Shown: positions 39,086-64,000 of the stretch, piece after piece
Position numbering within the stretch: the first letter of the stretch is position 1
How the letters are laid out: each line of letters starts with the position of its first letter
Source: the human T2T-CHM13v2.0 reference genome, Homo sapiens
Reading direction: 5' to 3' (one strand)
Assembly: GCF_009914755.1 (NCBI RefSeq)
Contig: NC_060932.1
Length of the DNA: 64,000 nucleotides
Notes under the pieces: model-generated
What the model was told of the DNA's origin: nothing
What the model saw: only the letters and a program-made list of their open reading frames with translations
Database searches by the model: none
Made by a program: the position numbers and the translations under genes

Positions 39086-42023
39086 ATTATTATATACAAT
39101 ATTATATACTGTTAAAATTATATACAAAATATATAGAGAGGGATATAAATATAGATTAAAACTCCTGGAGGAGCTACCAGAGATAAATTAATATGGCATG
39201 GTCAGGAAATAAGTAGTACTACCAGGTAAGAAAAATTTTAAAGTTATCAAGTTGAAAACATCTACCTTCAAGTCTCACAATGCCACCCTCTCTGTTTATT
39301 ACCCTCCAGCCCCTTTCTGTAGTTCCCATACACGCGTGCACACACAGCATCCTCACACAAGCCTGTGCCTGACCAGTGCCCTCCGTTATTCCCACTTTCT
39401 TTATATCTTTATCCTACAAGCACTTTTCTAGCTTAAAATTCTCTACTGGGTCCTGAGAGGAGTCCATCCATGTTCCAGACCTTGCTTACCCATCAAACTA
39501 CCTAACCTCTGCTCCACCTCCCCTGGGCTTCTCTCCTCACAGAGATGATGCTAAAGAGGAAAAGGAAGTGTTCTGGGCCACATTGGACTTAACACAAGCA
39601 CTCACTCTCACCAGAGAACTAACTTCTTGCCTTGGCTTCATCTAAGATGCATGTCTCCAGCAGGCATTCAGGAAATCATTTTATTGGCAAGAAAAGTGTC
39701 TTTCAGATCCTGAGAACAAACCTGGAGAGGGAGTATCTTGAGGCCTGGGATCCATTTGGTACTTCCAACCCTACCATAACCATGCAGGAGCTGCTTGTTC
39801 CATCCTTTAGTAAGGAAAATGAAGGAAGATCTACATTCTGTGCCAAGCTTAGCACATACCAAGCAAGATTATCAGTGAAGACTAGACACCCACTCTGCAT
39901 AATTGTCTATTTCATCATGGCCATCCTGCCTTCACCATTGTCATTCCTCTGCTAGTTTCGAGAAATAGTATCACATGATCCTAGAGAAAGCTCCATTTTG
40001 GTGCCTGTCTAGGGACAGTTCCTGGGGTTCTGGGGGTTGCAGAGACAGAGAAGCAGAAGGTTTGGTGCTGTCAAAGTGGAAAAAGAAGAAAAAGTAACTC
40101 AGGAGTTCATGAAGTGCTCAACATACTTCCTGTAAGGTCTTTTCCCCTTTAAAACAAAACCCTTCTCTCGAGTATTTTCTTTCTGTCCACATTTTCTTTC
40201 CCCTTAAGTTCCAGTTGACTATCTCTGAACTTTATAGGAAGCATCGGGTCCAGTGTTACACAGTATTGTCTGTTTCCCTTCAACAAGGACGCCTGGGAAA
40301 TGATCTGTGAAAGAATGATCTTCTGTCTGCAATTATTGTTATAAATGTTCCTCTAGAACTCACTAGTGGCCGTATGGTCTTTAGTTTTATTTGAGAACAT
40401 TCCTGGCTTGTTTTCTATTAAAGGCAAGGCAGGCAGAGAGGATAGTAAATGAAAAGATATTTCCAGCCAGGTTCTCAGTGAGATTTACTTTTCAGTAAAT
40501 AAAGTACCTCTGGGAATAAACTGCTCATCCTTTGAGATGTATTACTATAGTTCTTATCATATCTGTCAATTCAGGAAAACAGACAATTTGCTAAGTATCC
40601 TGTTTCCCTGGAAATTAATTCTTCTGTGAACTGCTTCAGCCACTTTGTGCTTCTACCTCCTAGATCAAATATAGATTCTTGGCCTCCTCTTCAAAGCCAC
40701 CCACCACTCCATCTCCTCTCTCAGAGCCTCTCTCACCCTCTTGAAAGGCTGCACTATGGCCAGCCCATCAGCTGCTTGCTGGCTTTGCTGCCCATGCATG
40801 TGACAGCCTCACACTCATTGGAAATGCTGACTGCATCATCCATTAGCTGATTCCCTCCTAGAAAATGACCCAAACTGATTAAACACAAATGTTTATTCTT
40901 TGCCATAACACCCTACTAACTCCTTTTTTGTCTCCCTTAATAGTGAGTAAATCATCTATTTTCTGTACTTAGAATAGTCTTATTAAAAATGGATGAACTG
41001 AAGATGGCCGAATATGAACAGCTCCAGTCTACAGCTCCCAGCATGAGTGACACAGAAGACAGGTGATTTCTGCATTTCCAACTGAGGTACCAGGTTCATC
41101 TCACTGGGGCTTGTAGGACAGTGGGTGCAGGACAGTGGGAGCAGCCCACGGAGCATGAGCCAAAGCAGGGCAAGGCATCGCCTCATCCAGGAAGCACAAG
41201 GGGTTGGGGAATTCCCTTTCCTAGCCAAGGGAAGCAGTGACAGATGGTACCTGGAAAATCAGGTCACTCCCACCCTAATGCTACGCTTTTCCAATGGTCT
41301 TAGCAAATGGCACACCAGGAGATTATATCCCATGCCTGGCTCGGAGGGTCCCACGCCCACGGAGCCTTGCTCACTGCTAGCACAGCAGTCTGAGATCAAA
41401 ATGCAAGGCGGCAGCGAGGCTGGGTGGGTGGGGGGGAGGGCCCACCATTGCTTAGGCATGAGTAGGTAAACAAAGCAGCCAGGAAGCTAGAACTGGGTGG
41501 AGCTCACCACAGCTCAAGGAGGCCTGCCTGCCTCTGTAGACTCCACTTCAGGGGGCAGGGCATAGCTGAACAAAAGGCAGCAGAAACTTCTGCAGACTTA
41601 AACGTCCCTGTCTGACAGCTTTGAAGACAGTAGTGGTTCTCCCAGCACAGAGTTTGAGATCTGAGAACGGAAAGACTGCCTTCTCAAGTGGGTCCCTGAC
41701 CCCGGAGTAGCCTAATTGGGAGGCACCTCCCAGTAGGGGCTGACTGACACCACATACGTCCGGGTACCCCTGTGAGACGAAGCTTCCAGAGGAAGGATCA
41801 GGCAGCAACATTTGCCGTTCTGCAATATTTGTGGTTCTACAGCCTCCACTGGTGATACCCAGGCAAACAGCGTCTGGAGTGTACCTCCAGCAAACTCCAA
41901 CAGACCTGCAGCTGAGGATCCTGACTGTTAGAAGGAAAACTAACAAACAGAAAGGACATCCACACCAAAACTCCACCTGTATGTCACCATCATCAAAGAC
42001 CAAAGGTAGACAAAACGACAAAG

Positions 42024-43051
42024 ATGGGGAGAAACCAAAGCAGAGAAGCTGAAAATTCTAAAAATCAGAGCGCCTCTTCTCCTCCAAGGAACGCAGTTCA
42101 TGGCCATCAATGGAACAAAGCTGGACAGAGAATGACTTTCACGAGTTGAGAGAAGAAGGCTTCAGACGATCGGTAATAATAAACTTCTCCGAGCTAAAGG
42201 AGGATGTTCGAACCCATCGCAAAGAAGCTAAAAACCTTGAAAAAAGATTAGATGAATGGCTAACTAGAATAAACAGCGTAGAGAAGAAGACCTTAAATGA
42301 CCTGATGGAGCTGAAAACCATGGCACGAGAACTACATGATGCATGCACAAGCTTCAGTAGCCGATTCGATCAAGTGGAAGAAAGGGTATGAGTAATTGAA
42401 GATCACATGAATGAAATGAAGTGAGAAGAGAAGTTTAGAGAAAAAAGAGTAAAAAGAAATGAACAAAGCCTCCAAGAAATATGGGACTATGTGAAAAGAC
42501 CAAATCTACGTCTGATTGGTGTACCTGAAAGTGACGGGGAGAATGGAATCAAGTTGCAAAACACTCTTTAGGATATTATCCAGGAGAACTTCCCCAACCT
42601 AGCAAAGCACGCCAACATTCAAATTCAGGAAATACAGAGAACACCACAAAGATACTACTCGAGAAGAGAAACTCCAAGACACATAAATGTCAGATTCACC
42701 AAAGTTGAAATGAAGGAAAAAATGTTAAGGGCAGCCAGAGAGAAAGGTCGGGTTACCCACAAAGGGAAGCCCATCAGACTAACAGCTGATCTCTCGGCAG
42801 AAACTCTACAAGCCAGAAGAGAGTGGGGGCCAATATTCAACGTTCTTAAAGAAAAGAATTTTCAACCCAGAATTTCATATCCAGCCAAACTAAGCTTCAT
42901 AAATGAAGGAGAAATAAAATCCTTTACAGACAAGCAAATGCTGAGGGATTTTGTCACCACCAGGCCTGCCTTACAAGAACTCCTGAAGGAAGCACTAAAC
43001 ATGGAAAGGAACAACCCGTACCAGACACTCCAAAAACATGCCAAATTGTAA
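42024..43051 (+). pseudogene. L1 ORF1p, disrupted
   Basis: ORF fragments 42110-42391 and 42710-43051 (coiled coil, RRM/CTD); internal stops at 42389 and 42569. Confidence 0.95.
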
Positions 43052-43114
43052 AGACCATCGATGCTAGGAAGAAACTGCATCAACTAATAAGCAAAATAAC
43101 CAGCTAACGTCATA

Positions 43115-63000: not shown

Positions 63001-63845
63001 CATGACTAAAACACCAAAAGCAATGTCAACAAAAGCCAAAATAGACAAATGGGATCTAATTAAACTAAAGAGCTTCTGCACAGCAAAAGAAACTACCATC
63101 AGAGTGAACAGGCAACCTACAGCATGGGAGAAAATTTTTACAAGTACCCATCTGACAAAGGGCTAATATCCAGATTCTACAAAGAACTTAAACAAATTTA
63201 CAAGAAAAAATCAAACAACCCCATCAAAAAGTGGGCAAAGGATATGAAGAGACACTTCTCAAAAGAAGACATTTATGCAGCCAACAGACACATGAAAAAA
63301 TGCTCGTCATCACTGGCCATCAGAGAAATGCAAATCAAAACCACAATGAGATACCATCTCACACCAGTTAGAATGGCGATCATTAAAAAGTCAGGAAACA
63401 ACAGGTGCTGGGGAGGATGTGGAGAAATAGGAACACTTTTACACTGTTGGTGGACTGTAAAATAGTTCAACCATTGTGGAAGACAGTGTGGCGATTCCTC
63501 AAGGATCTAGAACTAGAAATACCATTTGACCCAGCCATCCCATTACTGGGTATATACCCAAAGGATTGTAAATCATTCTGCTATAAAGACACATGCACAA
63601 GTATGTTTATTGCAGCACTATTCACAATAGCAAAGACTTGGAACCAACCCAAATGTCCACCAATGATAGTCTGGATTAAGAAAATGTGGCACATATACAT
63701 CATGGAATACTATGCAGCCATAAAAAAGGATGAGTTCATGTCCTTTGTAGGGACATGGATGAAGCTGGAAACCATCATTCTGAGCAAACTATTGCAAGGA
63801 CAGAAAACCAAACACTGCATGTTCTTACTCATAGGTGGGAATTGC
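60021..63845 (+). pseudogene. L1 ORF2p, disrupted
   Basis: TAA at codon 39 and several frameshifts; longest fragment 61802-63166 (454 aa, LFADDM). Confidence 0.95.
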
Positions 63846-64000
63846 ACAACGAGAACACTTGGACCCAGGATGGGGAACAGCACACACCAGGGCCTGTCGT
63901 GGGATGGGGGAAGTCAGGAGGGACAGCATTAGGAGATATACCTAATGTAAATGACAAGTTAATGGGTGCAGCACACCAACATGGCACATGTATACATATG

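What the first reader, a model, noticed from the sequence alone, without database searches (positions are those of the whole stretch)
40999..64000. L1-A and L1-C share inactivating and private mutations along their length: patchwork concerted evolution
Seen in both copies: ORF1 TGA (42389/59296), ORF1 TAG (42569/59476) and ORF2 codon-39 TAA (43229/60135). They also share words that differ from the consensus as I recall it: aacggaaagactgccttctc, gatcacatg, aacgacatgg, aatgcccgcaag, gaaattgacgcaataattaagagc, ggaccacacggattcacactc, cagattctac. Near-identical blocks (~41560-41713, ~43760-44150, ~44405-44547) alternate with diverged ones. Established: L1 proteins act preferentially in cis, so a source element with stops in both ORFs should rarely produce two long daughters. 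Inference: the mutations arose after insertion and were spread by several rounds of conversion of different ages. The alternative is a defective lineage mobilised in trans that landed repeatedly at one locus, which would be more unusual.
Basis: partly seen in the sequence, partly recalled or inferred. Interest (0 to 1): 0.75.

Follow-up and report, generated by a model that had tools for sequence, protein, structure and literature searches.

The report
Gene conversion between two neighbouring L1s
Two old, dead L1 retrotransposons that inserted separately 17 kb apart on human chromosome 8 have since copied stretches of sequence, including a stop codon, from one to the other, which is a clean but ordinary example of a known repair process.

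Summary
L1-A (41001-46553) and L1-C (57929 to 67 bases past the window end) are separate insertions with different target-site duplications and unrelated flanks. They share ORF1 TGA, ORF1 TAG and ORF2 codon-39 TAA at the stated places. It holds the TAA, whose 22-mer occurs only in A and C genome-wide, against 6111 places for the unmutated word.

Sharing is not along the whole length. 26 of 29 pair-specific sites lie in 41541-44560. In the 5' 540 bases and in 44601-46100, A and C are no closer than unlinked copies.

Best reading: non-allelic gene conversion, one tract very recent and others probably older. The ORF1 stops are the weak point. They sit in sequence with almost no excess identity, and each stop word alone recurs in 12 and 53 unlinked copies; only the combination is local.

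L1-L1 conversion is in print (PMC5829575). Low interest.

The parts
40985..40998 (+). 5' target-site duplication of L1-A (AAAAATGGATGAAC)
   Evidence: The exact 14-mer is found at 40985 and 46554.
41001..46553 (+). L1-A: a near full-length L1 with 5'UTR, ORF1 remnant 42024-43051 and ORF2 remnant from 43115. It has an internal deletion after 46384 (equal to C 63325-63905), then its own 3' end and poly-A.
   Evidence: Self-BLAST gives 93.7% to C over 5424 columns. Ends were read. Pfam finds L1 ORF1 domains and RVT_1. Lesions are listed.
46554..46567 (+). 3' target-site duplication of L1-A
57914..57928 (+). 5' target-site duplication of L1-C (AAAACTCCAATATAT). The 3' copy, with 2 mismatches, lies 68-82 bases past the window end and is followed by an Alu.
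   Evidence: using L033.
57929..64000 (+). L1-C: a full-length L1 that runs about 67 bases past the window end. ORF1 remnant 58942-59957, ORF2 remnant 60021-63845.
42613..43245 (+). Recent conversion tract in A: 633 bases identical to C 59519-60151. It covers the ORF1 3' end, the inter-ORF spacer and ORF2 codons 1-44, including the TAA at 43229.
   Evidence: 0 differences. It holds 8 sites that none of 40 panel copies share. The TAA word has 2 places in the genome against 6111 for the unmutated word.
59519..60151 (+). The same tract in C
43782..44153 (+). Second low-divergence tract (equal to C 60686-61057): 3 differences in 372 bases.
   Evidence: Two-state HMM. Identical runs of 126, 78 and 149 bases.
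41558..41713 (+). Short near-identical tract in the 5'UTR (equal to C 58476-58631): 1 difference in 156 bases.
   Evidence: The 24-mer at 41665, spanning two pair-specific sites, has 2 places in the genome.
44403..44548 (+). Short identical tract of 146 bases (equal to C 61308-61453).
   Evidence: The 21-mer at 44528 has 2 places in the genome. The 24-mer at 44483 has 3 places.
41541..44604 (+). The whole homogenised zone of A (in C about 58459-61509).
   Evidence: 26 of 29 pair-specific sites lie here. A and C are sisters with support 99-100. A-C identity exceeds that of any of 40 unlinked copies.
42389..42391 (+). Shared ORF1 stop, codon 119 TGA (C: 59296-59298).
   Evidence: The word has 14 places in the genome.
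42569..42571 (+). Shared ORF1 stop, codon 179 TAG (C: 59476-59478).
   Evidence: The word has 55 places in the genome.
43229..43231 (+). Shared ORF2 stop, codon 39 TAA (C: 60135-60137).
41001..41540 (+). Unconverted 5' block.
   Evidence: A-C identity over 41001-41600 is 0.882 against 0.894 for the best unlinked copy. Over 41001-41540 A and C are not sisters and share 0 pair-specific sites.
44605..46100 (+). 3' block at background divergence.
   Evidence: A-C identity is 0.932 and 0.939 against 0.943-0.953 for the best unlinked copies. There are 98 substitutions in the 1577 columns of 44561-46100.
54420..55376 (+). L1-B: a separate 5'-truncated L1 with its own TSD (CTCTCCTTGCCATC at 54406 and 55377). 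It may be a minor partner of C.

Best explanation
L1-A and L1-C are two independent retrotransposition events of the same primate L1 (L1PA-type) subfamily. They lie 17 kb apart in the same orientation and were already decaying. Later, homologous repair of breaks in one copy used the other copy as template (non-allelic gene conversion without crossover). This overwrote parts of a central zone of about 3 kb (41541-44604).

Shown: one event is very recent. It is a 633-base tract with no differences, and it carried the ORF2 codon-39 TAA into both copies.

Shown: other tracts of 146-372 bases are nearly identical and carry variants found nowhere else in the genome.

Inferred: older exchange in the rest of the central zone spread the two ORF1 stops (TGA codon 119, TAG codon 179), after which each copy gained its own differences.

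Not determined: which copy was donor in each event.
For: 1. Independent insertions. The TSDs differ (A at 40985/46554; C at 57914 and window+68), and homology starts at the L1 5' end.

2. The identical tract. 633 identical bases, against a null maximum of 179 or 269. A penalised segmentation isolates this block under every setting tried.

3. Words private to the pair. Multi-variant words occur only in A and C in 3.1 Gb: the 22-mer at 43220, the 24-mer at 41665 and the 21-mer at 44528. The unmutated control word has 6111 places.

4. Mosaic pattern. A-C identity exceeds that of the best of 40 unlinked copies in 41601-44600 (0.946-1.000 against at most 0.953). It does not in 41001-41600 (0.882 against 0.894) or in 44601-46100 (0.932 and 0.939 against 0.943-0.953).

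5. Where the pair-specific sites lie. 26 of 29 sites where A=C and 0 of 40 panel copies agree fall in 41541-44560 (binomial p=1e-4). In the first panel, unique and shared-private counts vary inversely along the element.

6. Trees. A and C are sisters at 99 and 100 in the two central blocks, and not sisters in 41001-41540.

7. Older exchange. Within the diverged state, rare shared sites number 16 in 2059 bases centrally against 3 in 2320 in the flanks (p=0.0018). Differences in 43246-44560 are clustered (p=0.0012).

8. The stop combination is local. No unlinked place carries both ORF1 stop words.
Against: - Around the ORF1 stops there is almost no excess identity. For 41714-42612, A-C is 93.3% and 1339 bits, against 93% and 1315 bits for the best unlinked copy among 40 scored of 6458 candidates.
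- The TGA and TAG words singly occur in 12 and 53 unlinked copies. The 53 TAG copies could not be fetched, so a small TAG-bearing sub-lineage is not excluded.
- A BIC-like penalty does not separate 43246-44604 from the 3' flank. A two-state HMM calls only two low tracts. 'Different ages' could therefore be one patchy event plus background.
- In 44561-46100 A and C are still sisters (support 91), though at distances equal to those of unlinked copies.
- The panel came from the tool's 40 scored of 35,611 candidates, plus 12 copies picked for carrying the TGA word. It is not matched to the subfamily, so some '0 of 40' sites may be minor-lineage variants. The chr7 copy shares 5 of 29 rare states.
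- No outgroup species and no second human assembly were available.
Confidence: 0.82

Rival explanations
1. A and C are two daughters of one defective source lineage that already carried the stops. Both were mobilised in trans and landed 17 kb apart.
For: The TAG word occurs in 53 unlinked copies and the TGA word in 12, so copies bearing these stops exist elsewhere. A and C are sisters even in 44561-46100 (support 91). Excess identity around the ORF1 stops is small.
Against: No unlinked place has both stop words. The 12 TGA copies are 87.5-91.4% identical to C, no closer than random copies. None of the 38 closest unlinked copies in 42300-42700 appears in either stop list. Variants inherited from a source should run the whole length, yet there are 0 pair-specific sites in the 5' 540 bases and 3 in the last 1780. 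A shared source cannot give 633 bases with no post-insertion differences beside blocks at 6%.
Confidence: 0.05
2. One L1 was copied by a DNA-level segmental or tandem duplication, and the two copies then diverged.
For: The two copies lie close together in the same orientation.
Against: The flanks are not homologous. Each copy has its own, different TSD. Homology begins at the L1 5' end, as it does in unlinked copies. Divergence is strongly non-uniform.
Confidence: 0.01
3. Shared subfamily diagnostics and recurrent hits at mutable sites explain the sharing. Nothing happened at this locus in particular.
For: ORF1 codon-130 TGA is a CpG change present in 8 of 26 panel copies. The 'cagattcta' 23-mer has 44 places, the TGA word 14 and the TAG word 55. 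Many shared non-majority sites are carried by 8-14 panel copies, so they mark the subfamily.
Against: This cannot give 633 identical bases. It cannot explain three multi-variant words that exist only in A and C in the genome. It cannot explain the restriction of rare shared sites to the central zone.
Confidence: 0.04
4. The identical tract is an assembly or polishing artefact that made two paralogous L1s look alike.
For: None from my calls. It is a general risk for near-identical repeats.
Against: The other near-identical tracts carry scattered single differences, and the flanks are well diverged, which is not the pattern of a collapsed repeat. This was not testable here because no reads were available.
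Confidence: 0.03

Closest known systems
Non-allelic (interlocus, ectopic) gene conversion between dispersed retrotransposon copies
   Same: Two paralogous copies of independent origin, close together on one chromosome, show tracts of raised identity with shared derived variants and trees that change along the sequence. A review describes this for transposable elements, mostly Alu, with raised rates for copies less than 10 kb apart (PMC6598467, passages read). A long-read survey of one human genome reports 'conversion between L1PA3 LINEs' in its Figure 4S (PMC5829575, passages read; the figure itself was not seen).
   Different: Here the partners are about 6-kb L1s 17 kb apart. The homogenised zone spans about 3 kb in several tracts and carries a stop codon into both copies. 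No outgroup was available to date the events or give their direction.
Concerted evolution of duplicated genes and segmental duplications
   Same: The same process and the same signatures. Divergence stays low in converted tracts, and gene trees disagree with the true history (PMC6598467).
   Different: The two copies are not products of a DNA duplication. They are separate insertions, and homogenisation is partial and patchy rather than sustained.
Trans-mobilisation of defective L1 RNAs by proteins from another L1
   Same: It would also produce several copies that share stop codons.
   Different: It predicts shared variants along the whole element and in unlinked copies. Neither is seen.

Membership tests
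LINE-1 (L1) retrotransposon, primate L1PA-type | ORF1 with L1 RNA-binding domains and ORF2 with a reverse transcriptase | tested here: met
   Pfam finds Tnp_22_dsRBD (E=1.2e-44) and Transposase_22 in A 42710-43051. It finds RVT_1 in A 44399-45472 (E=1.5e-39) and in C 61802-63166. The endonuclease match falls below Pfam's cut-off (20.5 against 27.4 bits).
LINE-1 (L1) retrotransposon, primate L1PA-type | Poly-A tail and flanking target-site duplication | tested here: met
   A, B and C each have an A-rich tail and their own TSD.
   No repeat library was available. The only indication is about 6% pairwise divergence in the unconverted ORF2 block.
Non-allelic gene conversion | The partners are paralogues of independent origin, not alleles and not one duplicated segment | tested here: met
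   The TSDs differ and the flanks are unrelated.
Non-allelic gene conversion | Tracts of identity far above background, bounded by sequence at background divergence | tested here: met
   The 633-base run against the null, the segmentation, the HMM and the block table against 40 unlinked copies.
Non-allelic gene conversion | Derived variants inside the tracts are private to the pair | tested here: met
   Three multi-variant words have 2 places in the genome and one has 3. Single-variant words are not private.
Non-allelic gene conversion | The tree changes along the sequence | tested here: met
   A and C are not sisters in 41001-41540, and are sisters at 99-100 centrally. In the 3' block they are still sisters (91), which is inconclusive for that block.
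Non-allelic gene conversion | The state before conversion is visible in an outgroup species or another haplotype | not testable with these tools
   No primate genome and no other human assembly were within reach.
Segmental duplication | Homology extends into the flanks and the insertion site is shared | tested here: not met
Trans-mobilised defective L1 lineage | Unlinked members carry the same set of lesions | tested here: not met
   0 unlinked places carry both ORF1 stop words. The TAA word is found only in A and C. The 12 TGA copies are unrelated. The 53 TAG copies were not examined.

The most novel reading that the evidence does not exclude
This locus is a live site of repeated L1-L1 exchange. 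The 633-base tract is young enough, less than roughly 8% of the elements' age, to be specific to the human lineage or even still polymorphic. Three same-strand L1s (A, B, C) may all be trading short tracts. If so, the locus could be used across ape and human pangenome assemblies to measure the rate, tract length and direction of conversion between dispersed repeats 3-17 kb apart.
Probability: 0.3. Interest if true: 0.4.

Novelty: new member of a known kind. Interest (0 to 1): 0.25.

Why it matters
The case shows that shared stop codons in neighbouring L1 copies need not mean a defective source lineage. Conversion can copy a lesion from one dead element to another. This matters for anyone who dates L1 copies, builds subfamily trees or infers source elements from shared mutations, because here about 3 kb of a 6-kb element gives the wrong history. 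The process itself is already established, so the case is an illustration rather than a discovery.

Tried and rejected
- Segmental duplication was rejected on the TSDs and flanks.
- I first read A as cut short at 46384, with B as its 3' part. This was rejected. A has its own 3' end and TSD after an internal deletion, and B has its own TSD.
- The first panel came from one long query: only 40 of 35,611 candidates were scored, and C itself was not among them. Its copies are 88-93% identical to C. It is a poor match to the subfamily in the ORF1 region, which I saw only after the short-query searches.
- My first change-point script returned a single segment, so I replaced it with a dynamic-programming segmentation.
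- An HMM with free rates collapsed to the 633-base block alone. Fixed rates were used.
- The chr7 copy sharing the 24-mer at 44483 is 90.4% identical to A and shares 5 of 29 rare states. It is coincidence or a minor variant, not a relative.
- Conversion between B and C: overall identity of 0.954 is hardly above the best unlinked copy at 0.947, so only a possible short tract remains.
- I found no paper describing this locus, but none of my 4 paper searches targeted the locus. One paper checked had no mention of gene conversion.
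Full report
**What is there.** A self-comparison of the window shows one long direct repeat. 41001-46384 matches 57941-63324 at 93.7% over 5424 columns. There are also shorter L1 3'-end pieces at 36762-37897 and 54420-55310.

Reading the ends, with 8 kb fetched beyond the window, shows three separate insertions on the + strand:
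- L1-A runs from 41001 to 46553 and is flanked by the exact 14-mer AAAAATGGATGAAC at 40985 and 46554.
- L1-B (54420-55376) is 5'-truncated and flanked by CTCTCCTTGCCATC at 54406 and 55377.
- L1-C runs from about 57929 to 67 bases past the window end. It is flanked by AAAACTC..ATATAT at 57914 and at window+68 (2 mismatches), with an Alu inserted just after.

A is not cut short at 46384. It has an internal deletion equal to C 63325-63905, then its own 3' end and tail. The flanks of A and C are unrelated. Homology starts where unlinked full-length copies also start. So A and C are independent retrotranspositions, not a DNA duplication. Pfam confirms L1 ORF1 domains and a reverse transcriptase.

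**The observation.** The three stops are at the stated coordinates in both copies and in frame: ORF1 codon 119 TGA, ORF1 codon 179 TAG and ORF2 codon 39 TAA. None is seen in the 26-28 unlinked copies of the first panel.

A fourth shared stop, ORF1 codon 130 TGA, is a CpG change also present in 8 of 26 panel copies and so says nothing about this pair. Each copy also has many lesions of its own, some inside the shared zone.

42613-43245 is identical to 59519-60151 over 633 bases. Random placement of the same number of differences never gave a run above 179 (whole alignment) or 269 (ORF part) in 2000 trials each.

**Locus-private or subfamily-wide?** I counted exact words in the whole 3.1-Gb assembly.

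| Word | Sites it spans | Places in genome |
|---|---|---|
| 22-mer at 43220 | ORF2 TAA (two pair-specific sites) | 2 (A, C) |
| 24-mer at 41665 | two pair-specific sites | 2 (A, C) |
| 21-mer at 44528 | several pair-specific sites | 2 (A, C) |
| 24-mer at 44483 | two pair-specific sites | 3 |
| unmutated version of the TAA word | control | 6111 |
| TGA 22-mer | one changed site | 14 |
| TAG 22-mer | stop site plus an adjacent rare site | 55 |
| 'cagattcta' 23-mer | one changed site | 44 |

The extra place for the 24-mer at 44483 is a chr7 copy. It is 90.4% identical to A and shares only 5 of 29 rare states.

In a family of thousands of copies a single change is expected to recur, so only combinations are informative. 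No unlinked place is in both the TGA and the TAG list. The 12 unlinked TGA copies are 87.5-91.4% identical to C, no closer than random copies.

Whether they form a small lineage stays open.

**The mosaic.** I compared A and C with 40 unlinked copies: 28, after dropping one of an inverted duplicate pair, plus the 12 TGA copies.

| Block | A-C identity | Best unlinked copy |
|---|---|---|
| 41601-44600 (five blocks) | 0.946-1.000 | at most 0.953 |
| 41001-41600 | 0.882 | 0.894 |
| 44601-45350 | 0.932 | 0.943 |
| 45351-46100 | 0.939 | 0.953 |

Further results agree:
- 29 sites have A=C while 0 of 40 panel copies agree, and 26 of them lie in 41541-44560 (binomial p=1e-4).
- In the first panel, counts of unique and shared-private changes vary inversely along the element.
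- Block trees put A and C as sisters with support 99 (41541-42612) and 100 (43246-44560).
- They are not sisters in 41001-41540.
- They are sisters at 91 in 44561-46100, but at the same distance as unlinked copies.

**One age or several?** A penalised segmentation always isolates the 633-base block. A milder penalty also separates 43246-44604 (2.5% non-CpG) from 44605-46384 (4.9%). A BIC-like penalty does not.

A two-state HMM with fixed rates calls two low tracts: 42613-43245 with 0 differences and 43782-44153 with 3. Differences in 43246-44560 are clustered (p=0.0012), unlike in three control blocks.

Even in the diverged state, rare shared sites number 16 in 2059 bases centrally against 3 in 2320 in the flanks (p=0.0018). 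This points to older exchange as well. One patchy event plus background is not excluded.

**The weak point.** Short-query searches found unlinked copies much closer than my panel.
- In 42300-42700, C is 96% identical to A and the best unlinked copies are 95%.
- In 41714-42612, which holds both ORF1 stops and lies outside the near-identical tracts, A-C is 93.3% and 1339 bits. The best unlinked copy among 40 scored of 6458 candidates is 93% and 1315 bits.

So conversion as the origin of the shared ORF1 stops rests on three things: the shared rare variants, the unique two-stop combination, and the absence of such sharing in the flanks. It does not rest on excess identity.

**Timing (my arithmetic, an inference).** Zero differences in 633 bases bound the pairwise divergence of that tract at about 0.5% (95%). 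The unconverted ORF2 block shows 98 substitutions in 1577 columns, or 6.2%. The latest event is therefore younger than about 8% of the elements' age. Absolute ages and the subfamily name were not tested.

**Known context.** A review describes non-allelic conversion among transposable elements, mostly Alu, as more frequent for copies less than 10 kb apart (PMC6598467, passages). A long-read survey of one human genome reports conversion between L1PA3 LINEs (PMC5829575, passages). A 2026 preprint lists gene conversion among the processes that blur old L1 histories (PMC13192797, one passage). The process is therefore known, and this is one more clear instance.

**Verdict.** Interest is low.

Noticed in passing
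window 54688-54841 (L1-B) and 63378-63531 (L1-C): B and C share a 154-base identical run holding two variants absent from the panel. A 68-mer spanning both occurs only in B and C in the genome. Overall B-C identity (0.954) is barely above the best unlinked copy (0.947). This may be a short B-C conversion tract.
   Followed up: partly
window 46309, 54558, 63249: A, B and C all carry G at this aligned L1 site, while no panel copy does. It is either a three-way local exchange or an unsampled subfamily variant.
   Followed up: no
53 unlinked places listed: The ORF1 word carrying an in-frame TAG, two adjacent changes from the panel majority, occurs in 53 unlinked L1 copies. Only 1 of 26 panel copies (L016) has the first of the two changes. 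It is open whether these are parallel hits on a minor background or a small lineage with a broken ORF1.
   Followed up: no
window 46384/46385: L1-A has an internal deletion of about 580 bases (equal to C 63325-63905) that removes the end of ORF2 and part of the 3'UTR.
   Followed up: yes
L033 83-363 (window+83 to about +363): An Alu is inserted directly after the 3' TSD of L1-C. A third copy of the AAAACTCCATATA motif follows it, so the same short target was hit twice.
   Followed up: partly
window 36762-37910 and 34410-34922: Two more L1 3'-end fragments lie here: one on the + strand at about 90% to C, and one inverted at about 80%. Together with A, B and C that makes four same-strand L1 pieces within 27 kb.
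   Followed up: no
L012 and L013 (G000 C2:94886075-94893316 and C2:94802863-94810104): These two fetched L1 copies give identical scores in opposite orientation about 80 kb apart on chromosome 2. They look like part of an inverted segmental duplication. One was dropped from the panel.
   Followed up: no
The genome search: L1-C was not among the 40 scored candidates for two of three DNA queries taken from A, although it is the best match. The tool's ranking of repeat candidates is therefore not a list of nearest relatives.
   Followed up: partly
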